Positions 19,569 through 61,938 of a stretch of 64,000 nt of DNA are shown one piece after another. Within the stretch, counting starts at the first letter, position 1. Each line of letters starts with the position of its first letter. The translations under genes were made by a program, and so were the position numbers. A model generated the notes under the pieces. The model ran no database searches and was not told the origin of the DNA. It worked only from the letters and a program-made list of their open reading frames with translations. This stretch comes from Gnetum montanum (lineage: Eukaryota; Plantae; Gnetophyta), in assembly GCA_015680685.1 (NCBI GenBank), contig MNCI01003306.1, positions 924,756-988,755 on the forward strand. The letters run 5' to 3'.

Positions 19569-19778
19569 TCACCCTGCACTAGAAGAGTCGAGAAGCCTTG
19601 TCTTCTCCTATAAATAAAGTATTGTGTGATCATTAGAGGCATCTAAAGAAGATAGATCAAAAGTAACGCTCCTTTCTCCTTCTAAGCATTCCTTCTTTGA
19701 AGCATTCATGAGGCTTTCTATTGTAATTTCTCCTATTTTGAGTAATAAAAGAAGTGTTCTTTCTGCTCATATTTAAGT
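19569..19778 (+). repeat. 5' copy of the viral terminal direct repeat (TATAAATA 19609-19616, AATAAA 19744-19749)
   Basis: Aligns to 50458-50670 with roughly 27 substitutions and one small indel by hand count. Confidence 0.9.
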
Positions 19779-19829
19779 TTTCTAAGTAACGTAAGGAAGA
19801 GAGTAAACATTTTTTATCCAAGTAGAGAG

Positions 19830-19847
19830 TGGTATCAGAGCCAAGTT
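19830..19847 (+). promoter_or_regulatory. Primer-binding site for initiator tRNA-Met (viral minus-strand priming)
   Basis: TGGTATCAGAGCCAAGTT versus the canonical TGGTATCAGAGCCAGGTT. Confidence 0.92.
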
Positions 19848-19958
19848 ACTCATAGATTTTCCATCCCTTTATGTGATTTTGTTGATCACTGAGGCATTAG
19901 GGAAGTAAGACACACAGTAAGGTTGAAGGATTGGTGAAGTAAGATGTGTATCTGAAGC

Positions 19959-20958
19959 ATGGCAACAACTACATCCTCACCAACCACAATGGCATCGTCA
20001 TCTTGCAACATCTCAAGTTCCTCTTCCTCTTGCTCTTATGTTACTCATTTATCTTACTACTGTAGCAATAAACAAGGCATCAATCTTCCACCCCTTCCTA
20101 CTCAACAAGACATTTTTCTGCTTAGTAGCATCAATTTTTCTAAAAGCTTTAGTAGTATGCACCTCTCTAAATGTGATTTAGAGATTACTAGCTCTAGTCT
20201 ACATCCAATTGTCCTAATCTTTTTCTCCCTGGAGGAGGTAGAGGAATGGATTAGATATGGGTATAATTACATCCATATTACCTAGATTGATATCCATATT
20301 TATCCTCATTTTAAGTATCATCTAAAAAACCCATACTAGATAGCCCTAATAGATTGACACTTCAAGAACTTTGAAGATGCAATAATCACACAAGCCACAG
20401 GTCAACTAGAAAAAGATGTGTTAGTAGTAACCCTACCCAACTTTACTCTCTATCTACATGACCCTAATTTATATAACAGTATAATGTTAATTACTTATAT
20501 TCCCTTAGATATGGTTCAAGATAGTGTTTATGCTACCATAGGTACTAGGTTAATTTTTAAGGTATTTGAAACCATGAGTATTAAAACTTTAATTCCCTTT
20601 GGACAACAAGCCCTACAAGTAGGCTTGACAAATATCAAATATGATGTTCAAATAAATAATGAAGATTTTCCCATACATAAGATGTATCCAGATCTAGATA
20701 ATGTACAAGAAGAATTTTATGGTTATATAAGGCCTAGGAAATCAAAATATAATAAACTTAGATATCAGGTCTAGTTGGCAATCCCCAAGTTTACAAAGTA
20801 TGACCCTCTCTATGAAGAGCATTACAAAAGAAAACCTAAGCTGAAGAAAATCCTTCCCCTTGTAAAAAAATCCACTAGATCTCATCCCAAGAACATCTAC
20901 TACCTCTATTCGAATCCTAGTAGAAGACGAAGAATTAAACATAAAAAAGAAAATTAAG
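19959..20958 (+). pseudogene. Caulimovirid 30K-superfamily movement protein (start of the polyprotein)
   Basis: One frame with TAG/TGA stops attributable to CAG/CGA decay: GYNYIHIT*IDIHIYPHF..IALID*HFKNFEDAII..L..VLVVTLPNFTLYLHDPNL. Confidence 0.88.
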
Positions 20959-23259
20959 TGAAACACCATCAATTTTGGGACTTTCATGATTCATCACAAT
21001 CCCAAAATTTGGACAAGGATCTCTGCAAGCTCGGTGTCATGCTAGACCGTGTAGACAACATGGCACCTTGGAAGTCCTAACACCTACGAAGCCACTTCTG
21101 GGCCTACCTACCACCCTTTGTAGAATAGTTGACACAGCACCCAGTCATGAGGCCAGTTTGCATGAATGAAGCACTAACAATGGATCATATAGTTTGGCAA
21201 GTTTTCTAACTGTGGGACCTGCTACGCTGCATAGCATAGCAGGCCACATGGTAACTGAAACCTTCTAAAGTGTCGAATCAAGTGTCAAAGATGTAGTTGG
21301 CAATGATTTATTCCTCAAGGATATCTACCCTACTTCATCCTTGGAATATGATTAGCGTAACATGGAAAAAAATATGTCAAATGTTGCAAAATGCATCCCA
21401 TTTTGGGCACCATGCTATGCTACACTACACAGCGTAGCACAATGCCAATCGTAACACAATCTTTCTTGAAGTTGTGTTGATAGAGAAAATGCACTTGACC
21501 ATTCTTCAATCCTTAAGGATGCTTGCCTTACTCTACCCTTGAAGTGTGATTGATGTGACGTAGGTAAATTTTGCAAAAGCCACCCCAACTTGGGTGCTAC
21601 GCTGCACAGCGTAGCAGGATGCCAGCACTAAGAAAGTATTCTCTCATATTGCTTTGACAAAAGAACTACATTTAGCCATGCAATAACCTCTAGGACTAGG
21701 TCTGATCAAAGTCCCACTCCACCTTCAGAGTCTGATCAAAGTCTCTTAACAAAGCATTGCAAATTAAGCTCAAATTCATGTTAGACTAGGTGCTACGTTG
21801 TGCAACGTTGCATAGCGTAGCACAGCGTAGTGGAGACATTGAGGTTAAAAGTGTCCCAAGGATGAAACCAAGAAGTCTCAGGCTCCTTTAGCATGAAAAG
21901 TGTAAAGGATGGTTCCTAAAATAGCTTTCCTTCCTAGCCCTCGAAGCAGGATTTTCAGTTTTTAGGCAAGATTTGTCTCAAAGGTGGCCTCAAACAGCAT
22001 AGATAGTATAACACTTGAAAAGAAGTCTCAAGACATCTCCAGAAGCTCCAAGACTTGTCGTCAGTAGTCATTTTTGCCCCAGCATCTTCTTGATAGTCGA
22101 GATCAATAGTTTGCCTTGCTTGTTGCATCCTTTGTCGAGTCCCGAAATTGTCTCTACACTTGACCCTACTCATAAGAGAGGGGAAGACGTAGTCCCGAAG
22201 TGTAAGCTTCACTTTACATTTGTCATAAGCATTTTTTGTAAAAATATGGCATTCCCTTGGGTACATGTAGTTTGAATGATATGATCATAGCTAGGCAGGT
22301 TTAACTTGTAGCCTTTTTTCATTCAGCATAGCACATCAATGTAGCACCACACATTAGCATAGCACATCCACGTTGGTGCTCTATGGGACCTAGGACACAT
22401 GATATCCAAGCCATATATCTCTCCTGCTCTTGGTTCTATAAATACCCCAGCAAACAACATTCTAGTTGTTAGCTTTTAGCAGTTGGATTTTGGTAGTTGG
22501 CTTCTCGTAGTAAGCTTCAACGAAGAGATTGGCAAACAAAAGGTTGATAATAGCAAATCCCAACAGTAGCACTTCCAGATCTCTCTTCAACCCAGCGTAG
22601 CAGCTCTTAGCCCAATAAGCACCGGCTCATTAGTTCCTGTCAGCACCACATCTGCAGAAGTCTAGGAGCTATGATCATATCATTCCATTGCTAGCTGTAC
22701 ATGTCCAGTACTGCATACCAGTTGTACACATTCATCATCCAAACAAAGATCAGATCCCCTAATTTTGGGGTGATGCATTCCCTCACCTAAACTCTCATTC
22801 TATTTTTGCTATAACATATATGTTGCATCATTGTGTAATTGTTCATGCTTATTTTCCTGGTTACATACTTTGATGTGTTTCTATTGTTGTGCACCCCATG
22901 TTTTCTTTTAATTCAACCTCAACATGTTACATTTTAAAATTACTATTTTCATATGGTTATTGTACATCATGTAAGTCCTTGACTGATCGACTAGACCTTT
23001 CAGGGCATCCCATTTCCATTTTCTCTAGCATGGTTATGCATCTCACGTTTTCTTTTAATTCAACCTTAGCATGTTACACTTTAAAATTACTATTTGCATA
23101 CGGTTATTGTACACCACGTAAGTCCCTGACTGATCGACCAAACCATTCAGGGCATCCCATTTCCATTTTCTCTAACATGGCCCTCACACAGATCTAGGGT
23201 TAGGTTGTACACCCAATAACCTCTCAGTCTTCCAGCCACTAACATTTTTAGATGTCACA
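20959..23259 (+). repeat. 5' LTR of B (includes a ~146-bp internal tandem duplication near 22885-23180)
   Basis: Aligns with 38839-41032 (about 20 differences in the first ~160 bp). TATAAATA near 22437. Confidence 0.93.
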
Positions 23260-23264
23260 GTTTT

Positions 23265-23292
23265 TGGTGCTAGAATGAGGGCCTGAACCTCC
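23265..23292 (+). promoter_or_regulatory. PBS of B, complementary to the 3' end of plant tRNA-Asn
   Basis: TGGTGCTAGAATGAGGGCCTGAACCTCC versus TGGCGCTAGAAGGAGGGCTTGAACCTCC (tRNA-Asn sequence recalled, not searched). Confidence 0.7.
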
Positions 23293-23801
23293 ATGTATTT
23301 TTCATGTGTTACGGGTGATCCTGCATGCTATCTGTACGCCATTACCAGTAGCCTGCTGGAGTAGACATGACACCCCTGTGGTTGTCTATGCACTGGGTGG
23401 TGCAAATTGGTCACCACGATGGTTCCTCTGGAACCCTATAGGACAAACTAATGTGTTACACTACCTGTTTATTGTGTTATGCTGTCTACATTCTATATAG
23501 CGTAGTGACCCTATCAGTGTAGTAGTTCCTAAACTATATACTGTGTTATGCTACCTATCTACTGCATTACGTTGCCTATGTTCTCTGTAGTGTAGTGCCC
23601 TGTTGATGTAGCTATTTCTCTCAGCGTAGGAAGAGTAACAGTGAAGAAAACTAGCTTTTCAACATTTTCAGATGCTCCCAGTTTCAGTCTATTCTCTCTG
23701 TGGCTTTAGACCTTAACCGTTTAATGTAAAACATACTATTTTTAACTGTTTCTTACACATATCTCTCCCTTTTTTCTTTGCACCTTTTTCATATTGGAAA
23801 A

Positions 23802-26800
23802 ATGAATCCTGCTACCACTTCGATTCCTACCATGGGTTTGGAGGTGTCTCACTTTGTTCCACACATGGTGGATCTTGAGCAACCGCCTAGCCCAATGTGG
23901 ATACTACAGTAGTCTCTTAGACTACAGCATCAATCACCCGAATGCTTACCTCAAGACAAAGAGTGATATAATTTTCTATGTGCGAAAATCCAAGAAAATC
24001 TACCATTTGACTATCATGAATTTTAGGAAAAATGTAACTTTGAGATCATTCATTAGAATAGAAGGGAGTTCATTCCTACGTGTGATACCACTATCACATT
24101 CACTAACACATGTCAATGGCTTTTAAACCAGCTTGTGCAATTAAGTAGGTCAAGAGAATGGGACATAGTATCTCACTATGATGAACCTTTTCATGATGGC
24201 CAAGAGGAGTTAGACTCCCATTCTGAAGGTGGTGGTCCAACCTATGCTACGACTGTCCCTTCCACCTTTGTTGTTCATTCACACCAATTATAATTTTCTG
24301 CCTCTTTTGCTACTACCATGACACTACTACAACTGAGACCCTCTTTGGTGATGGGTAGTCATCAAATGTTGTCAACATATCAGCATGCAGGCCCTTCAAC
24401 CTCATTTCCCATTAATCATCCTTGCAAGTTTGTCCAAGCCCCACACCCAACGTCAATGATGCCCACATTGCCATATGTGCACACCATGCCCACATCACAA
24501 TTGCATGTAAGTTTTATTTCTATCCCCTCCTCTATACCCATTCCACCATTAGTAGTGGGCCCAACCTCAACCACATGGTGGACAACAATGACCTCTTTTC
24601 CTGCAACTCAAATGTCTCACATGCCACAATACGCATAGTCCCAAATATACCAAGTTTCACATGTAACGCAATCGAACACAGGGTTGTGGCCCACCCCAAC
24701 CATTGGGCAGATAACCACCCCCATAGCACCATCGATGTCAGCAGCTCCAATGGTACCACCCACTAGGTTGTAGGATCCTCAAATAACACCACTAGTAGGA
24801 GCTATTCTGATAGCACCCCCAATGGGACTAGTAGCCACACCAATAGCACCACCAGTGATGGCTACTCCAGTAGCTTCACAAGCCCCTGTAACACCCCCAA
24901 GTCTAGACCACACCTTTTAGCTCATCCATACCCTCACCGAAGAGATTAAACGGCTCAAAGCCGCCGATTCTGAAACTGTTCAAGTCATGGACTTCTACCA
25001 AGATGACCCGATCAGTCCAATTGTTCCCATGCTTACATTGCCTCCTAGGGTATAGCTTCCCTAGTTTACAAAATACAATGGGAAAGGTAATTTGAATGCC
25101 CACCTGATCACTTTCAGGTTTGAATCCTTGTTACTACAACTGTGGCCCCATACCATCATTCATGTTTTTTCCATGTCCTTGATAGACAAGGCCTTAGACT
25201 GGTACAATGCGCCTCCCTATGCTTCTATCTCAAAATTAGAAGAATTGCTAAGCCAGTTCATGACTCGTTTTAAGTATAACTTGAAGCTGGAGGTCACTTT
25301 AGATTAGCTCATGAACATTAAACAAGAATCATTAGAATTTGTACAAAAATTCATACACCGTTGGAGTGCTACCCTAAACGAAATACATGAACCAATTTTC
25401 GAGGCCCATTTTCTAGCTATTTTCAAAAGGGCAATAAATGATTTTATCAACTCCAAACTATATTATTTGGCTCCGCATTCCCTTAGCCACGTGTTGGCTC
25501 AAACTAAAAGCATTCAGGATGCGGCGAAGGCTAGTAGAGATCCAGCATACGTAGCCTATAAAAACACACATACAATGAAAGACAAGGAGAAAGGTAAGGC
25601 CACAACAACCACAGTGGCCACTGTGGCTAATGAGACCAAGTCAAACAATAGTAAAAGGATTTCCAGAACACCCGAAGCCTCCACTAACACAACACTCAGC
25701 TCCAGTAGCACTAGTCCATCCCTGACATTAACACCCATAGTGCAAACTCTACCAAGGCCAAATTTTAAGTGCAAGGATCGCTCAAAATATACCCCGTTAC
25801 CAATTAAGCCTTCGAAGCTTCTAAGTTAATTATTTGGAGCTGAGTGTATCCAACATAAACAAATGTCAGAGGAGGTCCTTAAGCGTCACCAAAGGTACTT
25901 TGAAGTCCTTCGTGATCCCTCCTTGGCTATGCCTAATGAACCACTAGTACCCAGGAACTTCAAGCTAGAGCATTTTTGCTATTATCATCAATTGTGTGGG
26001 CATGATACAGATTATTTCCTGGCATTGAAAGATGATATCCAGCGAATGATCAATCAAGGTAAGTTGGTCCTGGATAAGAGCAGTCCTTTCTAACTTGAAA
26101 ATCAATTAATGAATGTTTACAAAGATCCTTTGAATGCTAACAATGCAGGTTACACTATCAATGCCATTGGCATTGATGATAACATAGAATCAAACATGAA
26201 CCCTTCGTGGTTCATGTACCTCCCCGCAATGCTAAAGCTTCAACAACAACCAGGTCACAAACCCCTTTGTCATTAGGGCCTCTCCATAAACATCTGTTGC
26301 ACCATTTGTACTTAAAACTATATTGTGTCCCACTACAACAACCCAAGCAACATTTGTTATCAAGATGCCAAAGCATGCACGTTCCCCTACTACCCAAATT
26401 TAAGTGACAAGCAATGCGTCTCAACTTCCTCATCTAAGGAAACACGAAGAACATCTAGCAAATAAGTTTGCTAGAGAATGCACTACGTTGGGCCCCCTTA
26501 AGCCCATCCCCTTGTCCACAATTCCCATGACCTCTTCATCATCAGCCACTAGTGGCAACACACACATGCAACCATCATCCTCTGATTCAAAAAGGCTTAT
26601 TATCCAACCCAAAGCCACTCCCCCTTAGGCAATTCATCTTCTAGGGTGTATAGAAGAAGAAAAATTTAGCAAATAATCAGATAATGGGCAAGACTTCCTA
26701 AATGCATTTTCATAGGTTAAATAGGCCTTGAAACAAAAGAACACAACATTAAGCTTTTACGACTTAATAATGACCTATACGGTGCATCATGAGACTTTGG

Positions 26801-27605
26801 TTCACATGTTAGCATCTATTTCTATTAGTAAAAACATGCCAGCCAAAGAAAAGCTATCCATGCCATTATGCTTCCCTTTGTGATTGAAGAACCATAGCCA
26901 GCCCATTTAACATTTCATGGAAAAGCCATTAAAGATGACCCTGAAAAGGGTCAAGTGACTACCACCCCCATGTTTATCACAATTCGGGTAGGTCAGTATA
27001 AGATTTGTAGAATACACATCGATGACGGGGTTGCCACCAATGTGATCCCATTCCCCATAGTGGACAAGTTGGGCCTGGTGGATTAAATCAAGCCCACAAC
27101 AACCTCATGTTTAAAGTCATTCAATGGGGCATGCATCGTGGTCAAGGGGACTGTTACCATCAACTTTATAGTAGGGGACTAGTTTCCCACTAGCGCAGTA
27201 TTTATTATGATAGAAGAGATGCCTGGGTTTAACTTGATCTTGGGAAGATCGTGGTTAGCCTAACTAAGAGCTATCTCCTCACCCATACACCAAGAGATCC
27301 ACTTACCCTATGCAGGTGAAGAGGTGGTGATCTTTGGTGATGAAGTAGCTCCCCGAGCCATAAACAATATAAACATCGAGTAAGGATCAGAGATAGAAAT
27401 CTCTGAAAATGAATCACCCATTCATCCTAAAATTCCATGTTTGACAAATGAGCCGTCCAAAACTACCAACTTAAATGAAGAAACCATGTGGGCCAAATTT
27501 CCCTTCCAAACGGCAGATGATAGCATAGAGGAATGCCACCACAAGGCTTCCCGACCATATGCCTTGCCTAACCCACGTCGGATTAGGAAATAATTACATG
27601 ATTAA
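23802..27605 (+). pseudogene. gag: Element B Gag-protease ORF (decayed), ending RPYALPNPRRIRK*LHD*
   Basis: FTKYNGKG, FSMSLIDKALDWY, KQESLEFV..FI.RW, FCYYHQLCGHDT, IHIDDGVATN, FNLILGRSWL. Confidence 0.9.
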
Positions 27606-27726
27606 AGTTTTCCTCCACTTTACTTCAATCAATTTTATACTTCTGTTTGCATGATTTCCATTTTGCATTAAGTTTTTGTTTACATTGTCTCTGCTACTAG
27701 CATTAGTTAAAGCGATTATGGCTTGG

Positions 27727-27965
27727 AATGGCCTTAAACTACCATCACGGCTTGAAATGGCCTTAAACTACCGCCATGCCTCGCTAAGGCCTAAAACTGG
27801 CAACATCACTTTCGAAAACCACCTTACACATGACCCAAAATGGCCTTAAACTACCACCACAGCTCGTTAAGGCCTAAAACTAGCAACCCTACTTTCAAAA
27901 ATTACTTCACATATGGACCAAAATGGCCTAAAACTAGCAATGGCCTGAAATGGCCTCAAACTAGA
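27727..27965 (+). repeat. GGCCTTAAACT motif array after the protease of B
   Basis: About 7 copies of ggcct(t/a/c)aaact with variable spacers. Confidence 0.85.
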
Positions 27966-28115
27966 GCATGGGGGCCCACAAGGGGCTATAGTACACCAAC
28001 AAACACATTAACCAAAAGGAATAAAACAAGTGTTTTAATTTCCATTAAATATAAGTCTATACTCAGAATACATAACAATAGGCATTTCATTTCAAAGAAA
28101 AAATTTGCCAATGGG

Positions 28116-31100
28116 CTATGAGTCTTTGCCAGTATCTTTATCCCCTACCCCACTAGGTCCTACATCCTCATTTGGGTCTTGCATAAAGTAAGAATAATAT
28201 AATGAGTCAAATTACAATCACATATCATAGAATAAACTACAATATAGTAAATCTTGGCTAACTTGAGATGGGCTTGCATCCATCTCTAGAGGTATTCTAT
28301 CCATGCTAACTACTAAGTGTCAATGTATTTCATCCTCACTTAAGTTGGCCTAATCTTCTTCCCCTAGATCAACGCTTGCTACAATTTTTCCCTTTTCCAC
28401 AACTGTCCATGTGGGCGGTCCTAGAGAGAATGTAGTAGTAGTGGTCTCCCCAAAAGGCAAGGTTACCTCTCCCTCAAGAGATTCACTTACCACTACCTAC
28501 TTTGTAAATCTTTCGTAGGCCTTGGTAGCACCAATTACATCAAGAAATAGCTCATGAGTATGCAATTCAACAAAAGCATCTTGATATTTTTGATGGTAGG
28601 CAACAAGTTCCACCTTGTACATGTGTTTATGATTTTTCTGTGCCTGCCCCCATTCATACACCTTGGCGTTGTAGTCTTTTCAATCCTGGTTTTTCAGGGC
28701 CAATAGATCCATTTGCAAGCATTGTTCAATCACTTCCTGGGTAGCTTCATTCCTTCCTTGTACAGCCAACCAATATCTTGCATAATCGATTACAGTCGTA
28801 CGCCAACTACCATCTGAACTATTGCGAGCCATTAAGAACTCATTCCTTGACTGCAGATCTTCCAATTCAACTGCTTGACTAGCTTTCTCCTTGTCGAGTT
28901 TCTAGACCCATTTTCAGAGGTCTTCATTAAGGCACCTACACTCCCACAACGATCATGCCAAGTATAGTGCACATTTACTTGCCTCCTCGTATATATTAGG
29001 AGGCACCTTAGTTACCTCGGGAGGGAGCTCAGGCACAACATCAACTTCAACTGTCTATTGTGGGTCCCATTTGAGTCAAGAAGTTGGTAATCATACACAA
29101 AGAAGCGTTAATCACTAGATGATAGCAAAAATACAATAAAGTAGAGAGAAAACATTGTACTTCAAATGAAACTATCCCGGGGTCAATTTTTCTTAAGCAA
29201 TCAATCATGTCATCAACAATCCCCTCCATAAAGGCAAACTTATCTGACGTTTCTATCCATGGCTCTAGGCAAAAGGAAGAAGAAGACTCAGGACCTTTAG
29301 TAGCAGTGTCTACTATATAGTAAAAGCACATTAGCATTATGAAAAAGAGGGATAGGAAAGTGGGAAGTAACATAAAAAATAATGTAAATCTTCTACCCAA
29401 ACAACCCTCAAGGGTAAGACTGGGGGGGATCACCCATTAGCACACTGTCAAACAAACAGTCAAACTCATCAGTGCCAAACTGTAGCCCTTCTACCTCTAG
29501 CTGACTTAACAGTGTAGCAGCATCTTCAACCGTCATGTACCCCTCAAGTGCTGGGGAACACTTTTCCAAAGGTTCATCTATAGTAGGGGCCTCTTCCTCT
29601 ACTGCAGGGGCCTTGTCCTCTACAACTGAGGCCTCTTCTTCTTCTATAGCAAGGGCCCCTACCCCAAGGGCCAAAGTTTCTTCTTCATCATCTATTAAAC
29701 ACATCTGAAGTGAGCATGCTAGTCTAACAAAACAAAAAAAGGGGGGAGGGGTAGCTAACGAGGCAATTAAATCATACTCACTAGCAAATGCAGGTTGCAC
29801 TTTACAAACCTTGATCCGTAATCTTTTGCCTCTTTCTTCATTGGTATGCAAAGGCTCTTCTATGGGAAAAGATTTCTTGTGTTGCAACTTTGATTTCACC
29901 ATTTCAGCAATAAGGCATGCATCCCTTACCACATTGCCTATGTTAGTATGAGGCGCTTGTCCAATGCTGTCTTGTGCATGAAAGGGTCATCCCACCTGAT
30001 CCTTCGTTGTTAACGAAAAAAACTTCCCAATAGCTTCTAGGGGGTTCTAGGATCGAGTGGTGTAGAATACTTAGCAGATCCATGGCTTGGATATCTAGGT
30101 GTGATCCTACAACACCCAAATGTCATTCTCTCAAACCACCAAGAATTCAGCAAACCGTCATAGGTAGGCTATAAAAAAGGCAAAATGCACATTAAAACAT
30201 GCATTAAGATTCTCATAAAGCTTAATCATTTTGGCCCGCAAACCCTCAATGAGATACTTAGCCTAATTATAGTGAGTCCCTTCTTCCATGACATCCCTCA
30301 TAATCCAAGTCTGCTCTACCCCAAAAATTTTCCCTTAGGAGAGTAACTTGGGGAAAGCACGACCCCAGAAGACAAGGTAAACCTTATGGGCTACCTCTAG
30401 CTTGACCTTATTCATGTAAATCCCCTTTCAATCTTTGCGCATCCCTAGCCATTCTTCTATGTCCTCTCGATGGTTTACATATTTTCTGGTCTTCTCCCCT
30501 ATATGTAAGCCATCAGAAGGAACACTTAAGAGATCTGTGAAAAGGTTGTCAGTGATCTCAAACACCACCTGTACATTATGCACTCACGTGCGAAAGCGGT
30601 CAGCCCTTTCCATAAAAGAGTCAACAAGGACGAGCATCTCTACAGCTGGAATGCTTGGATTTACTACTAAAAATAAGTTCATGAGCCCAACCTCTTGGAC
30701 ATTCTAAACAAGGGTGGCTTAGGCCCCATTGTAAAACCAGCATTGTGTCTTGTCCACTTCATCATATTTAAAGAAGAGGTTAGTTTTGTCACATCCTGAT
30801 GTGATTACTGTAACCTCTATAGACTCGGCCACCACTATAGTAATCAAAAGATAAAAGCAAAAATAATTAATCGATCAATCAAAGGCATGCAAAAATACAT
30901 ACAAAACCTAACCCACCAAGTGTAAACAGCGTAGGGAATAATAGGATTTTCACTAAAACTTCTTCCACAGTAGGTATTCAATGAGACACCCATTCGCTAT
31001 CCAACCACCCAAGCTCTTTGCACTTCAGAGAGAACTTGGCATACTTGGTTGGATAGGTTCTAAATTTGGCCCCAAGCTATTCTATGACACTGGCCCACAT

Positions 31101-32860: not shown

Positions 32861-32883
32861 CAAGACTACCATGGGTAATCCCC

Positions 32884-32891
32884 TATTTATA
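32884..32891 (-). promoter_or_regulatory. Candidate TATA box of the antisense gene of B
   Basis: Plus-strand ctatttatag reads CTATAAATAG on the minus strand, ~250 bp upstream of the first donor (32632). Confidence 0.6.
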
Positions 32892-37018: not shown

Positions 37019-37061
37019 CATACAACGTCATGCCAAATATAAAGCAAGGTAAGCACCATCT

Positions 37062-37405: not shown

Positions 37406-38784
37406 CACAGTGTAACACCTCCCAACTCACACATGTGAGCTTGTGAACAAGTGAGCATGCATATCTTCAAGCTTCCTAGGCAAGATGGGATGGGACATTG
37501 CAATTCCAGAATGAAGTTCACATCATCAAGAAAAATACCTTTAGGACACATGTAGTGTCGCCATTCCTAGCATCTTGTTGATCTTCCTGAGATGCCATAT
37601 GGCATCTTGATGACCTTTCGGAGCTATTGCCGCCATCACCAATCATCTTGGAGCACCTTCTACTAGAATCCCAACACTATTGTGGCCCAGCCACAATGCT
37701 ACCATCCTCCAACCCTTGCCATCATTAGAGTCTAAGAAATCATTCAACTATTAGGCTTCTCACCTTGTAGCTAGACATCCTGGCTATTTCCTTTGTTGGG
37801 GATTCCTGAGCACCCACATTACCGTTGCTCCTAGCCTCTTCAGTGCTCATTTCCAACATGGCTATTGAAGTTTTCCAGCTTGCCACCTTCAAAGCTGATA
37901 CTAGCCTTCATGCTTTGGATATTACACATGTCAAACATAGCACTTGTTTCTTCAACAATGTCCCGAGAAAACAGGACTTCGCCCTCACCTCACATGCTCA
38001 TTGTTTTTCTAGTTTTCTCTCTATTGTATTTGCAGGATAAAAGACAAGATGGCATTGTTCGAGAATACATTTCACCACCAGGACAAGGTGCTACATCATT
38101 CCAAAGTACCCAATCTAATCAACCTAGCTACTTGAGAGTGCATACCCTACTATCCCTTCAGCCAACCTAACTTCCCTTCCTTATACTTACAGTTTTTGAC
38201 ATCTTCCTCCCAACCTTTTCCAATGTGTGTGAAACCCTTTTCTGTGCTCAACCACCAAGCCCATGGTGGATGTAATGTAGCTCGTCCTATGGGAAGCCTC
38301 TGTAGACTAGTCAAAGCCCCACATGGATGTAACACAAACTCATCCTGGGGAGAAAACACTCGTCTTACAGTAATAACACAATTACCTTCGAATGAACATG
38401 GGTGTGTGATTTTTTCTCCCAAAAAAAAGAATAAAAAGTGGTGATATAGCCAAGTTCCCAAGACAAATGGTACAGTTTCCTTGTAGTCATCTCAACTTTG
38501 GATCAACCACCTCTAAGCACTCCAATGAGAGGTCAAAATCCAAAGGGAGAAGCCACTCATGTGCACCAAATCCCCCATAAGAATTCTGACAAGGGATCAC
38601 ACTATGGCAACAACTCCCATGATAACGCATCCTACACCTTTCCTTTTCCCTAGTAGAATTTCCTCAAAATCGTCTCTTTCTCTATCATACTTAGCTTTCT
38701 CACCACTCCCAAGAATAGTAAAGCATTATCTAAGCAGGCACTCACGAACTGTATGATTGTCATGTTCAGCATAGTGTTTCATTT

Positions 38785-38838
38785 TCTTTGTCGATGTCTC
38801 TTAGGCAAATACTCTAGACATCAACAAAGAGCAGTCAT
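38785..38838 (+). other. Pre-LTR hairpin plus decayed polypurine tract of B
   Basis: tctttgtcgatgtct ... agacatcaacaaaga inverted repeat immediately before the 3' LTR. Confidence 0.7.
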
Positions 38839-41037: not shown

Positions 41038-43300
41038 GTACCTAAAAAAATGGAAAGAATCTTCAAAGACTTAAATATATCTTTAGATGTTGAGAAGGTT
41101 TTTATGACCTATTCCATCTAAGGATAAAGGAAAGGAAAAAGTAGAAGAAGTATCATCTTCCCAAAAAGAAGACGAATCATCATCCTCTTCTTCTGAACAA
41201 CTATCTATAGAATCTTCTATTGATCCTTCGTGCCCTTACACATCTATACAAACACAAGAACAATATTATTGTATGGGATGTGGTGCTTTACTTAAGATCA
41301 ACATGAATGAAAGAAATTCATAATCACAATCAACACCACAATTTATATGCTGCAAGCCAAGAAAACATACGACACTCTAGCTGATATGATCCAACTCCAA
41401 ATTTGGACAAATAATAGGATAGGATTAATACTAGATTATAATTATAGGCACAACTCTATGCAAGAAAAAATAAAAGAACAAGTAGAACAAATCCACCAAA
41501 TTTGGGTCCCCAAAGGTAAACACTCTAGTCCTTCAGAAAGTAGTAGCTCTAAAACTAAGACTAAAGACAAAGGTAAAGAAAGACTTCTTCCATTTTGAAG
41601 ATCACTACCTCCTATCAAAATATCCCATAGGGCTAGATTTAGAGCAAAACAAAAGGCTGAAAAGGAATCCAAAAGTAAAGAAAAGGTCATTAACGCCAAC
41701 ACTAGAGTTCAAGGACCTATGATCACTTCTAATCAAGAAGGATCCACAATTATTACAAAAGCCTTCCTTGACTGTGAAGAAAAACTCATGACTAAGAAAA
41801 ATTTTGGTGGATGCACTAAAGATCCTATAGATTTCTCAGAAATGCAAATTAGAAAATTGGATGATAAGGCTCCCACTTTCTCTATGGATAATAAAGATTT
41901 AAAAGGTTAACGAGATACTATAGATTCCCTACACAGTTTTGTCATGATCTAAATAGTTTTAGAAAGGAAACACTCCATTGATGACATTTGGAATGATACC
42001 TTTAATTTTTGAGGTATCTTGAGAAGATGGTGGAACCATATACCTAATGATGTTTAAAGAAAAATCATGCATGCACCTACTGTCATATTTATCAATGCTA
42101 TCATAAAAGAGTTTATCAGAGATAAACTTCATACTAATAATCTTTATCATGATAGATTTTACAAAGCTAGGCTACATATAATCCAAGACCTTCATCAATT
42201 CCTTAATGATATGAAATAATAGTATTACTAGGGAAAACTTACCCATGAAGTAGGTGCAAAAAAACACTTGATAGGATGTCTCCCTCAATCATTCTATAAT
42301 AAGTATTTTGCTGAACTTAAACATCAAGATTTAAATTTACAAGAAATGAGTTTTCAAGCCATTAGACAATTTATCACAAATGTGAATTGAGAAATCTATT
42401 ATGATCAACAAGCATAAAAATAGGTTAAAGATTTATGTAGGAAATTAGGCAAATCATTATGTTTAGAAATCTATCTAGAGGATAAGTTCCATAAGTCATC
42501 CTAGTGTTGTCCACAACAAGGGCATAAGAGACGGTACTACCATCCACAACACTAGGAGATATCCTTATTGAGTTCTTTGATTATTACACTGATGGTAATA
42601 TCAACACAAATCTTGAGTATATCTTAGATCTTGATTCTACTTTTTCCCGTGGAGGGGAGTTTGTAGACTTAGATGATTCCAATGTTGTTTTCTGTAAAAT
42701 ATGAATCACCACATATCGTTTTCAGGCAGATGATCCCAAGGTAATAGACTAGGTCAAACCACTAAAGATGAATCTATGTCCCATAGATCTCATCAATCAA
42801 AGAGATGTCATAGGTCTAGAAAGACAAATCCTGAAGATGACCCTACATATGTAAACATAAAAGAATAGATATTAGAATTAGAAAGTAAACTAAAAAAGAC
42901 ACTAGTAGACAATATACATAAATACATCTCTGTTCAGAAAAAGCTACAAGAAAAAAAAGAAGAATTAAGATCCCAAAAACATCATCTGAAATAAAGAGAT
43001 ATGTTTTTCCAAGAGGCCCAACTTCCATTAGACATAGAAGACAAACTCAAGGAATTAGAAAAAGTAGAAAAATCCACTAATGAATCCTCTCCTGAGGCAT
43101 CCTCTCCTGAGTTATCTCAACCTACTTCTCTAAAAAGGTAAGAATCTCCAAAACACCCAAACCTAAAACCATTTCTTTGAAGAACACATCAAATAAGGTA
43201 ATTACAAGCCTTTATCCAATGGGCTACAAATGAACTAGAATAACTATAGATAGAAGAAAATAATAAACAGAGACAATAGTACAAAGAAGAAACAAAGGCT
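41038..43300 (+). pseudogene. Caulimovirid polyprotein middle region: linker, coat protein and a charged coiled-coil-like segment
   Basis: F*GILRRWWNHIP..FINAIIKEF..IGCLP (caulimovirid CP-like) near 42010-42290. Zinc knuckle not clearly preserved. Confidence 0.65.
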
Positions 43301-43700
43301 ACCATGTATGTCCAACTAGTGAACAAAAATATCCAAATAAAATCTTCTCTACCTATTTTCCCATTTTATATTAAATTTCCTCTTATAAAAAATAAATAGA
43401 GATATCACTGGCAAGATCAAGTGCCATACCAAGGCATTTTTTTAACCAAAAAGACAAAGTCTTTTGTCTCTTTCAACACATAGAAGAGACCAATAGATCA
43501 TTAGGCTGAAATTCCAATCCAATCAACCCAAGGTAAAACTTTTCTCATAATTTTATATCAATCTAATATACCTTCTTATGATTTACTTCTTAAGACTAAC
43601 AATTTGCAACACTTAGAACCTTATACTATAACATCTAGACATATAGTTCTAGGTAATCAAAAATTTAATAACATAGAAAAATACATAAGTAGATTTCCCA
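43300..43700 (+). pseudogene. Caulimovirid aspartic protease remnant (catalytic DTG apparently deleted)
   Basis: EISLARSSAIP ... YDLLL..NNLQHLEPYTI matches the C-terminal protease motif and lies just before the RT. Confidence 0.55.
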
Positions 43701-43839
43701 TTGAAAAACCTCAAAAACTAGGGAAAAAATGGATCATAAATCAAGTAGAAAAGTTAGACGATCAATTCCAACAATGTAAAAACAAATTATTAGAGTTAGC
43801 TAATAAAAATCCTACTTTCTTTCAATACAAAATGGAACC

Positions 43840-44506
43840 CTAGTGCCATATCAAATTAAAAGAGAGCATAAAAATTAGTTCAAAAGCTCATCACATAGGT
43901 ATGCCTCCAAATTTATGGAAAGAATGTGATGAAGAGATAAAACAACTTATAAACAAAGGTTTGATCTAACTAAGCGCAAGTATGTTTACCTATGTCGCTT
44001 TCTATGTTAATAAACATGCAAAATTAGGTAGAGGAAAGAAGCACTTAGTAGTTAATTACAAACCTTTGAATAATCTAATTAAACTAGTGGAGCATCCTAT
44101 TCCAAATCAGGATAATCTCTTTTAAAGACTGTTACATACCTATGTCTATTCAAAATCTGAGTTAAAATCTTGGTTTTGGTATATACAAGTTTATCCTAAA
44201 GATCATTGGAAAATTCCTTTACTGTCACTAGAGGTCTATATGAATGGATTTTTTTACCTTTTGGGATGAAGACTACTCCTTCCATTTTTCAAAATTGCAT
44301 GGATCATATTTTTTCACAATATCAATTCATTATGGTTTATATAGATGATATTTTAATTATGAGTATAAATGTTAACCAAGATCTTGAGCATTTAAAGATA
44401 TTTTATGATCTTATAGATAACCATGGTTTGGTTCTTTCACCAACACAAATGCAAATTGGTCAGGAAAAAATAAGATTTTTAGGATTAGAAATCTCACAAG
44501 GTTTTA
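43840..44506 (+). pseudogene. Caulimovirid reverse transcriptase, truncated after FLGLEISQG
   Basis: EIKQLINKGLI, AFYVNKHA, RGKK.LVVNYKPLN, GLYEW..LPFGMK..PSIFQ..MD, VYIDDILI, FLGLEI. Confidence 0.93.
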
Positions 44507-45559
44507 GGAGGCCAACCCATAAAACATTGGGGCATAGGGGTATTTATAGGGCTAGGGTTAACCCAAAATGTAGATCAAGCACCACATGGTAGTGTGATAG
44601 GTGGGACTATGAGAAAAAGTCAAAAAAAATCTCTAAGTTTGGAGGTGACCATAAAAGTTCAAAAATTTTCTAACTCTAGTTGCTACACTCACCCCTTCTT
44701 ATGCATAGGACACGTAACTTAGCAGATAGAAAACATTTTGCAAAACTAGTGTTCCATGTTGACTATGCTCTAGAGCACAATAGGGGCAATGGGAGCATAG
44801 CATAACAGTTAGCAAACTTCTACAAAACTGGCCATTTATGTGTTGGCTATGCTTTCTACGCTCTAGAGCATAGCAGCTATAGTGCCAGGGCATAGCACAA
44901 CACTTAGAAAAATTCTATAGATTTTGACCTTATTTGAACACTTAGCCAAGATTATAGAAGATTGGCCATTGAAGTTGACTACACTCTACTGTAGTGGAGA
45001 GCATGGTCTCAGCACTTGGACAAATTTGTGAAAAGTGCCATCATTTTGACACTTAGAAAAATTTTGCAAATCTAGCAGTTGGAACTTACTACACTCAACA
45101 CTTAGAAAAATTTGGGCAAAGTGCTACCATTTTGACACTTAGCCAAATTTGTAGTTGAGACACCAAGACCTGAAATTTTGTGCTATTTTAATGTCCCCTC
45201 TTTGTTGATGTCTAGAGGAGTAGCCCGAGAGGCATCAACAAAGAATTGTAAAACATCACAGCAAATGTGGCACCAACATCGCTTCTCAATACTAGATCGA
45301 GTGTCATTCCACCATGTTCAAGAGTGCTGTGGATAACGATGTGCTAGGGAAAAGTGTGTAGGAAATGTGCTAGGGAGATGAAATTCAAGTAGAGAAAATA
45401 AAATGCAAACAATGTATCTTGATGCAAGATGTGAAGTCAGCATGGCTAACGGTGACCATGGCATGAAGTGGCTTGCTCTTAAGTGTTGACTCCTCGTTGG
45501 GATGCTTATGAGAGAGGCAAAGTCGATCCAAGGCTAGGCTGATTGAGAAATTTCAATGC

Positions 45560-47001
45560 TAGGGTTTCTATATGCCACGTAGGCTAGGTCATTACTAGCT
45601 TGTAATGCCTCTTCTATGCCCTTCATTTGGGCAAAGGCTTAGCTAAGAGACTTCAAGGCTAGGTAATATAGTTTGGACCTGATGAAGTCATTCACTACAC
45701 CCTTGAATATGGCCAGTAGGTGTGTCTCTGCTAAGGATTCACACATTTCACTCAATGCAACATTCCAGCATTAGAGGAATTTTGGCACAAGCTCTAGGAG
45801 CCCCTACTTGACTTGCATGAGCTAGTCGAGGGTTGCTTCAAGCTTTAGGTTGTACCTAAAGTGTGTCAAAAACTGGCTTATGAGATCCTCTAAAGAAGAG
45901 ATTGAGGCCTTAGGTAGTGCACGATACTAGTCTAAGGCCTTACCAATGAGTGACATGGGGAACATGTGCATGATGTCATGTGGCCAGGCTTGAAGGAGTA
46001 GGCACTCAGATCGAAATGTGCCAAGTATGCATTGGGGTTCCCTTTACCATTATACTTGGTAAGTTGAGGCAATAGGACCCTAGTTGGGAGAGTCAAGGGT
46101 GGGACCGTAGGACTTATGGGGTCGTCTTGGTAAAAGTCCACCACCTTGACAGTTTCAAAGGATGCAACTTTGAGTTGGTTGGTCTCCTCTGTCAAACTTT
46201 GGATTAGCTGGAATGCCTGATCCAAACATGGGGATGTGTTGGTTGGTTGCATTGGCTGGGTTTGTGTTGGTCATATGGCGTAGGGTCGAATTTTTGGTTG
46301 CAGATTTTTTCAGCTTAATGTCAAAGTGGATGTCAATTGCCAGTTTAACATCATAGTGAATGGTCATTACTAATTTAACATCATCGTGGATGGATGGTAA
46401 CGGTGATCAAGGTGGACCACACATGAGTGGGTTGGATGGACATCGTGGGCATTGATGAAACAGGCAAGATGTAGGATGCTTGAATAGTATAGGGCTAGGA
46501 GGTAGCCCCTTTGTGAGCATAGGGTTGGGCAAATGCAACAATTATTTGCAAGGAAGGCTAAATTAGCATGGTCACCATCTTGGAGAGGATGGATGGACTG
46601 AACCAAGGAGGGATTGTACTAGGGAGTGATTGTTGAAAGATAGTGTAGAGGAGGCTCTCATGTTTAGAGTAGGCCTCAAACTCATCTTCTTCCTCCTATG
46701 AGGCTTCCTCGTAGGTTGTTCTTGCATCATGCTCATTTGCACAGATGAGTTGGGACAACAGCTGGTGGTAGGACTCCATGAGTGGAATTATGTCAAACAA
46801 GGAGGATTTGTACTCTCGTCCATCCTAGTGGACTCATTCATAGTTTTGTTTTGCCTCCAGGTCAAGGTAATCCACTAGTAATCCTACTTGGATTTTGGCA
46901 CAAACAAAATTCTATTGTTTGTGGCTTAGCGTAGCATGCTTTAGGTGGATCATGGTGTCAAATGTGTTAAACACTTACATGAAAGGTTGATCTGGATTCA
47001 T
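45560..47001 (-). pseudogene. gag: Partial gag of D
   Basis: DFYQDDPISPTVPPLTLP...LTKYNGKGNP, homologous to B and C. Confidence 0.85.
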
Positions 47002-47039
47002 ATTCACAAATCAGGTTGTGAGAGTTGCTATTTGTAGAA

Positions 47040-47320
47040 AAAGGCTAACTCTGAAAACTGCAGAAAAATGACTAACTTTGCCAATAGCAGAAAAATGGCT
47101 AGGTATAAAAATGTAGAAAACTGGCTAAGTGTAAAAATGCAAAAAAATGGCTAAGTATGGAAACTACAAAAAATTGACTAAGTGTAAAACTATAGAAAAT
47201 TTAGCTAAGTATGAAACTACAAAAATTTGGCTAAGTGTGAAAATGTAGAAAAAAATGCTTAAGTATGAAAATGCAAAAAAAAAAATGCTAAGTGTGAAAG
47301 CTACTAAAAATGGCTAACTC
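47040..47320 (-). repeat. ~30-bp tandem repeat in the 5' UTR of D
   Basis: Recurrent aaaatgtagaaaa..tggctaagt(g/a)t. The same repeat occurs inverted at 53250-53580 in C. Confidence 0.85.
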
Positions 47321-49057
47321 TAGTGCTACACTCACTACGCTAGAGCTGGCTACGCTCTCTACACTGAGAGCTAGCTACGCTCTCATGAGAACCTAGAATT
47401 TTAGTTAACTGGCAAATATACACTTTGGCTTTTGTCCAACAATGTTCCAGGGGAACTGACTACAGGGTCCAATCTACACCAACTAGTGGTGGAGAGAGTA
47501 CGCATGACAACAATCAAAAAATGTAGAAGAATGGCAAGGCCCTACTTCTAGAGCCAAAAATTATAACAACTAAAAATGTCGATGGCTAGAATCACTAAGG
47601 GATCAATGAACACACAACCTTAACCTTGCCTCTGCATGAGGACCTTGCTATAAATGGAGGCAGAGTGCTCTAAATGGTCTTGTTGATTGAATAAGGACTT
47701 TGTCAGTTACAACTAGGGTGGTGGGTGCAACTGGGGGGTGGCATGGTTAGCCAAAATACAAATGCAAGTGAGGTGAAATGGTACTAAGTGTCAAAGCAGT
47801 GCTTTGTAGTGCTAAGTGTAAAGCGTAGCCACAAAATGGGGTGATCATAGCTAAGGGTTTTGACCACAATGAGGGTGTCAACCCATGAAGACTATTGCCC
47901 GAGCATAGTATAGTGTGATGATGTGTGAAAAGTGCAGAAAGATGCAAGAAAAATGTAAGAAAATACTAAAAATAGGAGAGAGAAATGAACACTACCCCAA
48001 ATGGAAGAGTAGTTAACTCCAAAAGGATCTCAAAAGGTACATAATGTACAAAAACCATAGTGGAAGCATAGTCAAAATCTCGATGGTGTAAGGCCGTGAA
48101 GTCTAGTGCTAGCCATGATGAACCATGTTTGCTAGGTTGGCCACCGCAGTGTATTGTGTGGTGTTTTGTAGGGCTGCAATGGGGTCGTAGTGTACCTTGC
48201 AGTGCAAGGCTACAATGGGGCCATGATGTATCAAGTGGTGCAACTATGCCTCTCTACTATTGTTGTGTGCTTTGGGTCTCGTTTGCCCACAAAGCTAAGT
48301 GTCGAGATGCCAAAATGCCAAATGCCAAATGAAAGTGCCAACTACTAGTTGATGAAAAATGGAAGCCAACCCCTAAAACATTGGGACAAAAGGATATTTA
48401 TAAGACTAGGGTTAACCCAAAATGTAGATTGGGCACTATGTGGTAGTGCAGTAGGTGGGACTACAAGAAAATCTTAGAAAAATTTTCTAAGTCCGCAAGT
48501 GACCAAAAAAGTTCAAAAATTTTCTAACTCTAATTACTATGCTCATCCCTTGTTACTCCTAGGACATGTAACTCAGTAATTAGAAAACATTTTGCAAAAA
48601 CTAGTGTCTCATGCTAGCTACACTCTAGAGCGTAGCAGGTGCAATGGGAGTATAGCATAACACTTAGAAATATTCTACAAAGCTAGCTATTTGTATGTTG
48701 ACTATACTGGCTACGCTCTAGAGTGTAGCATAGCGTAGCAACTACAATGCTAAAGCATAGCACAAAACTTAGGAAAATTCTATAGATTTTGACCTTATTT
48801 GAACACCTAGCCAAAATTGCAAAAGATTGGCCATTGAAGCTAACTACACTCTACTATAGTAGAGAGCATGGTCTCAGCACTTAGACAAATTTGCAAAAAG
48901 TGCCATCGTTCTAACACTTAAAAAATTTTTGCAAATCTAGCAGTTGGAGTTGACTACACTCAACACTTAGAAACATTTGGGCAATGTGTCACCATTTTAA
49001 CACTTAGCCAAATTTTCAGTTAAGATGCCAAGACTCAAGATTTTGTGGTGTTTCAAG

Positions 49058-49346
49058 TATGCCTCTAGAAAATTTTCTCCTAACTAGTTAAATTACCATA
49101 GCACTCACAAGGAGCTATTAGCCATCACCAAAGGGATTGAGAAGTTTTGGTTATTCCTGCAAGAAAAACATTTTATTATCCATAGTAACCATAAACAATT
49201 TGAAAAGTACCTTAATGTAAAGAATATAAATAAATTCGCCCATACTCGCTTAATCTGTTGGGCTTTATTTCTAGCAAATTTTGAATTTTCTACTAAATAT
49301 ATTAGTGGTCAACTGAATGTTTTAGCTAAATTTCTGACAAGAGAGT
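49058..49346 (+). pseudogene. Caulimovirid RNase H (N-terminus lost)
   Basis: YASRKFSPN*LNYHSTHKELLAITKGIEKF..F..TRLICWALFLANFEF..YISGQLNVLAKFLTRE. Confidence 0.92.
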
Positions 49347-49387
49347 ATAATCTCTCTTTATTACTAACTTGTTTCTATTTTATGTAG

Positions 49388-50311
49388 ATATCCTACAAAG
49401 GGAAGGATGGGAATTATGATCTTCCCTCACATATTAGAGCATGCCAAGCAAATGAATTTTATATGCTGGCTTTAGAAGCACATACCCTTGAGATCCAGCA
49501 TGATTCTACTTTTGAAGCCTACCATCTATGGTGTCAATCTAACAATAGAAGTGCTTGTATTAGGCAAATGTCCTACCATCCTTTTATACTTCCTATAGTT
49601 ATTAAAAATATGGTCATGATGTGTAATCTTAGCTTAGCCCTAGAAACCTTAACATATGATAATGAGGATGTTTGCACAGAGATGCATTTACTTCAATGGC
49701 CATTGTATAAACCTTCTCCATTCCACCACTTTGTCATCAATATTAATAGGTGAAGTCCTCCTAACGAATTATTTTGGCAATGGTAAAGTAAGCACAATCA
49801 TACCCATATGTATTATGGTCTAGGATATCCTTGCCACCTATACAACCGATGTAATAAGTACCATGGTGACTTCTTGTACTATCGTGATCTACAATCCAGA
49901 GGTTGGCACATCCTAATTTATGGATATAACCCTTGCTATTTTCTCACAACTTGTATAAGCAAGCATATAAATTGGTCTAACCCCTACGGATATGCCTTTT
50001 ATCGTGATGTATATACTACTAATCATCATGACATTGTAGAAACCTACAAGTTACAAGACATTCCTCCTTCTACTCTTCATTTAAAATTCCTTGATGACAG
50101 AATCTAGACTAAACATAATGATGGTTCTAGATATCAATTATTCCAATTCCTGTATGAAGGAAGAACTCCTAGGTTCAATAGGCATCATCCACCTACTCCA
50201 TGGTCAAACAATCATAGGCTTAATCCTAGTCATCATCACCCTTCCTTCACACCACCTACCAATGATGATGAGCCATAATCAAAAGATGATAATGGAGCAT
50301 CTGCCAACTAA
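49388..50311 (+). pseudogene. Unknown ~308-codon viral ORF downstream of RNase H
   Basis: Single frame, in frame with RNase H. Its four internal stops are all TAG/TGA/TAA attributable to C>T decay. Preceded by the branch/acceptor-like ctaac..ttctattttatgtag. Confidence 0.65.
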
Positions 50312-50457
50312 AAGGCACTAAGAACTTGCATTATTGTAGGCATGCTTGCTATGCTAAGATTCTCCTTAAAAGTTTTGTTAGTGAAGAATCCTATACAAAG
50401 TACTATTTGTAGTAAAGAATATATTCTTCCTAATCTTATGTGATGGTGCTAGATGAG

Positions 50458-50670
50458 TCATCCTACACTAGAAGATTCAAGAAGCCTTGTCTTCTCTTAT
50501 AAATAGAGTCTTGTGTGACCCTTAGAGGCATCCAAAGAAGAGAGATTAGAAGTGAAGTGCCTTGCTCCTTCTAAGCATTCCTTCTTTAAAGCATCCCTAA
50601 GGCTTTCTGTCGTAAGTTCTCCTATTTTGAGTAATAAAAGAAGTGTTCTAGTTTCTGCTATTATTTAAGT
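50458..50670 (+). repeat. 3' copy of the viral terminal direct repeat (TATAAATA 50498-50505, AATAAA 50633-50638)
   Basis: Aligns with 19569-19778. Confidence 0.9.
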
Positions 50671-61937: not shown

Positions 61938-61938
61938 T

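What the first reader, a model, noticed from the sequence alone, without database searches (positions are those of the whole stretch)
19569..50670. Near-complete endogenous caulimovirid hidden in three pieces, with LTR-like terminal redundancy spanning TATA box to poly(A) signal
Seen: removing B and D leaves ~6.5 kb in the order repeat(TATA, AATAAA) - tRNA-Met PBS - MP - CP - AP - RT - RNase H - unknown ORF - repeat(TATA, AATAAA). The ~205-bp repeats differ by about 13% by hand count, similar to B's LTR pair (~12% over the first 160 bp), consistent with identity at integration. There is no integrase, no TG..CA ends and no 4-6 bp TSD (at most a shared TCA at both junctions). Known: caulimovirids integrate accidentally, and only greater-than-unit-length copies can make terminally redundant pregenomic RNA. 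A single MP-to-RH polyprotein recalls petu-, florendo- and the gymnosperm/fern endogenous lineages. Inference: this provirus was once able to template pregenomic RNA, may belong to an undescribed lineage, and is datable from its repeats.
Basis: partly seen in the sequence, partly recalled or inferred. Interest (0 to 1): 0.8.

Follow-up and report, generated by a model that had tools for sequence, protein, structure and literature searches.

The report
Fossil plant pararetrovirus with repeated ends
An old, broken plant pararetrovirus sits in this genome in three pieces with a 210-base repeat at both ends; it was likely pasted in by DNA-break repair as a slightly over-length by-product of reverse transcription, and the repeats give it a rough internal clock, but over-length viral fossils of this kind are already known.

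Summary
Three viral pieces (19569-20958, 41038-44506, 49056-50670; about 6.5 kb) run repeat - tRNA-Met PBS - MP - CP - AP - RT - RNase H - unknown ORF - repeat. The repeats differ at 27 of 210 sites (K2P 0.142). RT/RH fragments group inside Caulimoviridae with Taxus, Ginkgo and Cryptomeria elements (97/95); grouping with Ty3/Gypsy is rejected (AU p=5e-5). Corrections: the copy lacks the zinc knuckle, the protease catalytic motif and about 116 aa of RT thumb/RNase H. The shared TCA is no target duplication: an uninterrupted copy of the host repeat shows about 8-14 bases lost and microhomology at the junctions. Other family copies run through the repeat's 5' edge into the viral 3' UTR, so a fixed LTR start is not supported. 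The right end lies 50 nt short of the PBS, as do 3 of 6 ends in an unrelated family fetched here. Best reading: a 1.03-mer linear reverse-transcription by-product, trimmed and captured at a break. Both junctions are shared with a second organism (about 1.8% divergent). Over-length and LTR-bearing caulimovirid fossils are in print; genus-level novelty could not be tested.

The parts
19035..19571 (+). Left host flank: high-copy LTR-type repeat into which the virus inserted (TGTAACACC at 19468)
   Evidence: One 788-nt contig of run X7 matches 19035-19571 (record 16) and 50674-50907 (record 23); 11, 8 and 8 contigs in X1, X5, X7 leave the window at 19571
19569..19779 (+). 5' terminal repeat: core promoter (TATA 19609-19616), R-like region, AATAAA 19744-19749; begins in the middle of the GATGAGTCATC palindrome seen whole at 50452-50462
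19780..19829 (+). 50-nt U5-like stretch present only at the 5' end
19830..19842 (+). tRNA-Met primer-binding site TGGTATCAGAGCC
   Evidence: the same 13 bases or the first 12 open all 10 reference genomes checked there, and the WolV1 PBS in PMC13308828
19956..20958 (+). Movement-protein region (broken by stops)
   Evidence: Pfam PF01107 E=8e-10; 49% to P0009 residues 4-279
20959..41032 (.). Element B: nested LTR retrotransposon with its own insertions, TSD TTAAG
41038..42850 (+). Linker and coat-protein region; zinc-knuckle stretch missing near 42550
   Evidence: 48% to P0009 residues 591-827; no knuckle motif in any plus frame
42851..44506 (+). Coiled-coil, protease region (catalytic motif absent) and RT fingers/palm with YIDD at 44338
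   Evidence: 35-57% to P0009 residues 1012-1553; Pfam RVT_1 E=4e-17; best PDB hit 8r0s 'Enzymatic polyprotein' E=1e-19 against Ty3 RT 1.6e-11
44507..49055 (-). Element D: nested LTR retrotransposon; left LTR truncated together with about 350 nt of viral RT/RH
49058..49348 (+). RNase H, C-terminal part
   Evidence: Pfam RT_RNaseH E=7e-14; 66% to P0009 residues 1670-1766
49388..50278 (+). Unknown downstream ORF (about 296 codons, three internal stops); purine tract at 49397 is a candidate plus-strand primer
   Evidence: no Pfam hit, no hit among 154 loci
50458..50670 (+). 3' terminal repeat with TATA 50498-50505 and AATAAA 50633-50638
50671..51129 (+). Right host flank: continuation of the same host repeat (itself interrupted by element E, 51130-60682)
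   Evidence: record 23

Best explanation
This is a dead endogenous caulimovirid of a gymnosperm-associated clade-B lineage, about 1.03 genome units long, which likely entered as a linear, terminally redundant by-product of reverse transcription that was likely trimmed and captured by break repair inside a host repeat. Shown: viral identity, the repeat, junctions without TSD, loss of a few target bases, 3-nt microhomology on the left, later insertion of B and D, internal losses. Inferred: the minus-strand origin at the PBS gave the right end (50 nt trimmed); strand displacement beyond the promoter gave the overlap; the left end was trimmed to 40 nt upstream of TATA. The two repeats would then have been identical at integration, so they date it; and the fresh copy could have made one promoter-to-poly(A) transcript, weakly or with the host repeat's help.
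For: Tree and AU test. Empty-site contig bridging both flanks with 17 letters between 19571 and 50674. Related viral contigs cross position 50458 unbroken: 5 of the 24 records listed (records 3, 11, 19, 20, 21), and 5 X7 contigs carry the viral 3' UTR before 19580. Right end 50 nt before the PBS. In an unrelated young caulimovirid family, L032 is a 1.02-mer whose 147-nt repeat ends exactly at the PBS without TSD; 3 of 6 right ends that lie inside a locus fall within 90 nt upstream of the PBS, P about 1e-3 against a uniform null. Over half of rice ERTBV ends lie in the intergenic region and are ascribed to free ends of replicating DNA (PMC526188 passages). Repeat divergence is compatible with being at least as old as nested B and D.
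Against: No canonical polypurine tract lies just upstream of the repeat; the nearest candidate is about 1.06 kb upstream (49397), so the left end needs long trimming or another primer. The 90-nt window in the L032 survey was chosen after seeing the data, n is 6, ends were read from alignments in AT-rich DNA, and 5 loci were dropped (four run to the locus end, one duplicates L032). Right-side microhomology is 3-5 nt depending on the run. K2P of the repeat (0.142) is nominally lower than D's LTRs (0.189), although intervals overlap. Only 24 of 803 and 21 of 482 loose ends were shown, so fixed ends in other copies are not excluded.
Confidence: 0.55

Rival explanations
1. Repair synthesis copied round a circular (open-circular) viral DNA for slightly more than one turn, starting or ending near the PBS gap; no linear intermediate existed.
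For: Gives the same junction features and identical repeats; free ends of open circles are the mechanism proposed in PMC526188 and 10.1101/170415; needs no long trimming of the left end.
Against: With unbiased ends, a 210-nt overlap would hold both TATA and the poly(A) signal in under 1% of placements, so a strong bias to this region is still required; L032 ends exactly at the PBS, as a linear product would.
Confidence: 0.25
2. A head-to-tail concatemer (n + 0.03 units) integrated and later lost internal units by recombination, leaving the outer junctions.
For: Tandem arrays of endogenous caulimovirids are common (PMC10377300 passages; PMC4241990 passages).
Against: No trace of extra units in the window; both junctions are the original ones; it does not by itself explain ends beside the promoter and PBS.
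Confidence: 0.08
3. The lineage has true, fixed short LTRs and re-integrates from chromosomal copies like an integrase-less LTR element, as proposed for the grass 'Moridahovirus'.
For: The repeat holds exactly the signals a provirus needs; no TSD, as in Hvu-EPRV, whose LTR also starts with TCA; fixed ends could be hidden among loose ends not shown.
Against: 3' copy lacks the 50-nt U5-like part; left end cuts a promoter palindrome in half at a 3-nt match with the host; listed related contigs run through the 5' edge and none of the listed loose ends shows varied host flanks at 19569.
Confidence: 0.12

Closest known systems
Clade B gymnosperm endogenous caulimovirids (Gymnendovirus OTUs; group B.2.2 of Vassilieff et al. 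2026, PMC13308828)
   Same: MP-CP-AP-RT-RH order plus a downstream unknown ORF, tRNA-Met PBS, no integrase; tree position with Ginkgo, Taxus and Cryptomeria elements next to Petuvirus matches the paper's description of B.2.2 (the match is my inference).
P0009, an unnamed 1,768-aa polyprotein from a 6,010-nt Logan contig
   Same: Closest relative over the whole length: MP 50%, CP 48%, RT 59-62%, RH 67%; one ORF from MP to RH.
   Different: Intact, with zinc knuckle and DSG protease motif; its DNA context could not be fetched.
Greater-than-unit-length florendovirus loci (Geering et al. 2014, PMC4241990)
   Same: Over-length insertions (1.2-mer in Prunus; also Malus, Glycine) that could be transcribed into a full genome; ORF1 polyprotein plus unknown ORF2.
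   Different: Angiosperm lineage, intact ORFs, longer overlap; this copy is dead and its overlap is confined to promoter core and R.
Hvu-EPRV / 'Moridahovirus' (bioRxiv 10.1101/2025.06.08.658526)
   Same: Endogenous pararetrovirus with terminal direct repeats, no integrase, no TG..CA, no TSD.
   Different: About 1.3-kb repeats shared by many copies, TA-repeat flanks, grasses only; the paper states that its non-grass homologues, gymnosperms included, lack terminal repeats. Here 0.21 kb, one copy, inserted in a host repeat.
Petunia vein clearing virus (Petuvirus)
   Same: Single MP-to-RH polyprotein; sister clade (90/69, weak); 'quasi terminal repeats' noted.
   Different: Only 35-40% identity in RT/RH fragments; endogenous PVCV makes full transcripts from tandem arrays.

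Membership tests
Caulimoviridae | RT/RH groups with caulimovirids | tested here: met
   100/100 split from the retrotransposon rows; AU p=4.7e-5
Caulimoviridae | 30K movement protein | tested here: met
   PF01107, 39.1 bits, cut-off 23
Caulimoviridae | Coat protein with CCHC knuckle; aspartic protease with D-S/T-G | tested here: inconclusive
   Both regions align to P0009, which has the motifs; the motifs themselves are missing in this copy
Caulimoviridae | tRNA-Met PBS and no integrase | tested here: met
   PBS at 19830; no integrase Pfam hit in five segments or in P0009
Caulimoviridae | Circular gapped dsDNA genome and terminally redundant pregenomic RNA | not testable with these tools
   Fossil copy; the layout permits such a transcript
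Ty3/Gypsy LTR retrotransposon (Metaviridae) | Integrase, TG..CA LTRs, 4-6 bp TSD, RT grouping | tested here: not met
Petuvirus | RT/RH inside the Petuvirus clade | tested here: not met
   Petuvirus clade 100/100 excludes the window rows; 35-40% identity to PVCV
Florendovirus | Polyprotein plus ORF2, and RT/RH inside the florendovirus clade | tested here: inconclusive
   Layout fits; no named florendovirus was in the set; the angiosperm clade I take to be florendoviruses (my label) excludes the window rows
Gymnendovirus / 2026 clade-B OTUs | At least 62% RT amino-acid identity to an OTU representative | not testable with these tools
   Representatives not held; best named proteins 45% (RT N-part) and 54-56% (RT C-part)
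LTR-bearing EPRV (Moridahovirus type) | Family-wide terminal repeats with fixed ends | tested here: inconclusive
   Related contigs cross the 5' edge; no pile-up of varied flanks among listed loose ends, but most were not shown; 3' edge of other copies not covered

The most novel reading that the evidence does not exclude
A gymnosperm-type caulimovirid lineage that routinely makes linear, LTR-like DNA and integrates as promoter-to-poly(A) proviruses able to seed new rounds of replication: an integrase-less retroelement life style outside grasses, in a genus-level lineage with no name, datable copy by copy from its own repeats.
Probability: 0.12. Interest if true: 0.72.

Novelty: new member of a known kind. 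Interest (0 to 1): 0.4.

Why it matters
Endogenous caulimovirids are hard to date because they lack LTRs; Gong and Han found no orthologous insertions among their gymnosperm species. This locus offers three clocks at one place: its own repeat pair, two nested LTR pairs, and orthologous junctions in a second organism, which put integration at about 7 times the age of that split. Together with L032 it suggests that short PBS-anchored terminal repeats are a recurrent trace of how these viruses integrate, which could explain the grass 'LTRs' without a new genus-level mechanism and gives a general dating handle. The copy is dead and has no evident host function.

Tried and rejected
No host assembly is held, so other copies could be seen only as contigs laid on two short stretches. 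Exact-pattern scans for a motif of the repeat found 0 matches in metagenome and viral contigs. Single-protein locus searches found none; the alignment search found 80 of 489 relatives kept and 74 viral loci, none close to this lineage. No RNA holder listed; one RNA run (26% read) gave 14 reads on 50150-50950, all under 90% alike and on both strands: nothing from this copy, no statement on expression. The leader 19636-19960 folds no better than shuffles (z=+1.34). Homologues of the downstream ORF remain unsearched in the large protein collections. Rejected: retroposed transcript (5' copy includes TATA, no poly(A) tail); TCA as TSD (empty site has two TCAs); 'solo LTR' status of the host repeat (no TSD at 19468/61232, and the paralogous contig continues upstream to 19035). 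P0266 was mislabelled as Gypsy and left out. Earlier findings of the scan: none in three look-ups. Literature searches for a prior description of short R-spanning repeats in gymnosperm caulimovirids listed none, but the library lacks most subscription papers; the 14 spreadsheets of PMC13308828 were listed and not read, and the supplements of the barley preprint could not be seen.
Full report
OBSERVATION. The repeat search finds a two-copy direct repeat at 19569 and 50458; alignment gives 210 columns with 27 differences, K2P 0.142, interval 0.087-0.203, blastn E=7e-66. Both copies hold TATAAATA and AATAAA. The tRNA-Met PBS follows at 19830, 50 nt after the 5' copy. Element B (20959-41032) has TG..CA ends and TSD TTAAG; element D (about 44507-49055, minus strand) has one complete end and a truncated left LTR. 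The three viral pieces total about 6.47 kb. Pfam finds MP, RT and RNase H and no integrase in five segments.

HOW COMPLETE. The closest protein among 1.84 billion representatives with a single RT match is P0009, unnamed, 1,768 aa. It maps along all three pieces in order: MP 49-50%, CP 48%, AP-RT 35-57%, RH 66%. It is one ORF from MP to RH, which supports the single-polyprotein reading for the lineage; the window copy is too decayed to show it. Missing here: P0009 residues 1554-1669 at D's left end, the zinc-knuckle stretch, and the protease catalytic motif. The copy is dead.

WHAT IT IS. Of 273 proteins hit, 178 covered RT-RH, 88 remained after de-duplication and 36 went into an IQ-TREE LG+G4 tree with three window fragments as separate rows. 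The fragments group with P0009 (95/83), inside an 8-row clade (97/95) with elements annotated in Taxus chinensis, Ginkgo biloba and Cryptomeria japonica (names) and one unnamed protein; that clade is weakly sister to Petuvirus (90/69). The seven outgroup rows are split off at 100/100, and holding the fragments with them is rejected (p-AU 4.7e-5). Two outgroup rows carry retrotransposon Pfam domains; five were labelled by their place in the tree. Each fragment fills only 22-26% of columns. Identity to named viruses is at most 42-45% (RT N-part), 54-56% (RT C-part) and 36-41% (RH), under the 62% OTU threshold of PMC13308828, but decay lowers identity and that paper's 26 new clade-B OTUs could not be compared. 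Its group B.2.2, sister to Petuvirus and spread over Ginkgoaceae, Gnetaceae, Cupressaceae and Araucariaceae, is the likely home; this is inference. The host is not identified; runs hold about 3 Gb of contigs and the relatives suggest a gymnosperm.

JUNCTIONS. Contigs of the host repeat leave the window at 19571 in three of four runs (11, 8, 8 contigs). One X7 contig (788 nt, depth 9.11) matches both 19035-19571 and 50674-50907 with 17 letters between: an uninterrupted paralogue. Its family has TCA twice, 14 nt apart. The left TCA is shared by host and virus (the 3' copy shows the viral context GATGAG-TCA-TCC); the right TCA is the host's second one. So about 8-14 target bases were lost, with 3 nt of microhomology on the left (chance about 2%) and 3-5 nt on the right. 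This is a repair junction, as proposed for caulimovirids in PMC4241990 and PMC10377300 (passages). Related viral contigs cross the repeat's 5' edge into the 3' UTR (5 of 24 listed records; 5 contigs at 19580). No listed loose end shows varied flanks at 19569, but most loose ends were not shown, and other copies are too diverged to report on the 3' edge.

WHY THE ENDS LIE HERE. A random 210-nt overlap would hold TATA and the poly(A) signal in under 1% of placements, but ends are known to be biased: over half of rice ERTBV ends are in the intergenic region (PMC526188 passages). Among fetched plant contigs, L032 is a 1.02-mer of another caulimovirid with a 147-nt repeat ending exactly at the PBS. 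Of 11 loci of that family, 4 run to the locus end and 1 duplicates L032; of the remaining 6 right ends, 3 lie within 90 nt upstream of the PBS (P about 1e-3, window chosen afterwards). The window's right end is at -50. From general retroelement biology (recalled): minus-strand synthesis starts at the PBS, and full strand displacement gives linear DNA redundant from the plus-strand primer to the PBS. A purine tract at 49397 would predict a redundancy of about 1.3 kb, the length reported for barley Hvu-EPRV repeats; the 210 nt here would be a trimmed remnant. I put this at 0.55, copying round an open circle at 0.25, fixed LTRs at 0.12, a collapsed concatemer at 0.08.

COULD IT HAVE TEMPLATED PREGENOMIC RNA? 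The layout permits it: TATA in the 5' copy, PBS, and AATAAA with 32 viral bases after it in the 3' copy. But the 5' copy has only 40 nt upstream of TATA and half of the palindrome; core promoters without upstream elements are weak (recalled from CaMV 35S). Not shown.

AGE. Under all four readings the repeats start near-identical. K2P: virus 0.142, B 0.153, D 0.189, E 0.192; transversion distances 0.055, 0.033, 0.040, 0.036. Nesting needs virus at least as old as B and D; intervals allow it and transversions favour it. Organism C bridges both junctions (record 15; record 22) and differs at 50 of about 2,760 sites over four records (1.8%), so integration is about 7 times older than that split. 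With recalled rates, 0.142 means about 30-100 Myr (conifer-like) or about 5 Myr (grass-like).

KNOWN OR NEW. Over-length florendovirus loci able to yield a genome are described (PMC4241990 passages); repeat-flanked pararetroviruses without TSD are described in grasses (10.1101/2025.06.08.658526, parts 1-3 of 4 read), which states that non-grass homologues lack repeats. Also seen: PMC13308828 abstract, sections 6-9 and most of 11, supplement list only; passages of PMC10377300, PMC8256270, PMC5766536, 10.1101/170415, PMC526188. Six searches listed no paper on short R-spanning repeats in gymnosperm-type elements. Verdict: real, a new member of a known kind, useful as a dated and orthologous fossil and as a clue to the integration intermediate; interest 0.4.

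Noticed in passing
L032 3231-11795 (same locus as L033): Young endogenous caulimovirid (genus not tested) of 1.02 units with a 147-nt direct repeat (99.3%) ending exactly at the PBS, no TSD, beside a TIR-like gene fragment; the 5' copy lacks TATA and AATAAA. An independent case of PBS-anchored terminal redundancy.
   Followed up: partly
L018 about 4570-4750; L077 6750-7065: Short tandem duplications of the last 70-110 nt before the PBS at viral ends, as repeated template switching during repair would leave.
   Followed up: no
window 49360-49390: Branch-point-like CTAAC, pyrimidine tract and TAG directly before the downstream ORF; GTAAGA donors-like sites at about 19905 and 19939 in the leader. 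The ORF may have been expressed by splicing, as recalled for rice tungro ORF4; untested.
   Followed up: no
window 50528-50608: A motif in the R-like region draws far more contigs than its surroundings (summed depth 480-635 against under 60), so it is conserved across many diverged family members; 80%-alike RNA reads also fall here.
   Followed up: partly
window 51130-60682: Complete LTR retrotransposon E (TSD GTTAC, LTR K2P 0.192), related to D (about 75%), inserted in the same host repeat 460 nt from the virus.
   Followed up: partly
window 13377-14619: Tandem duplication of about 580 nt at 95% identity, much younger than the surrounding repeats.
   Followed up: no
window 61879-63632: Minus-strand RNase H and integrase ORFs of another retrotransposon with long open frames, ending at an assembly gap.
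   Followed up: no
P0009: Intact 1,768-aa polyprotein on a 6-kb Logan contig, no more than 50% identical over RT-RH to any other protein fetched: possibly a young or episomal member of this lineage.
   Followed up: partly
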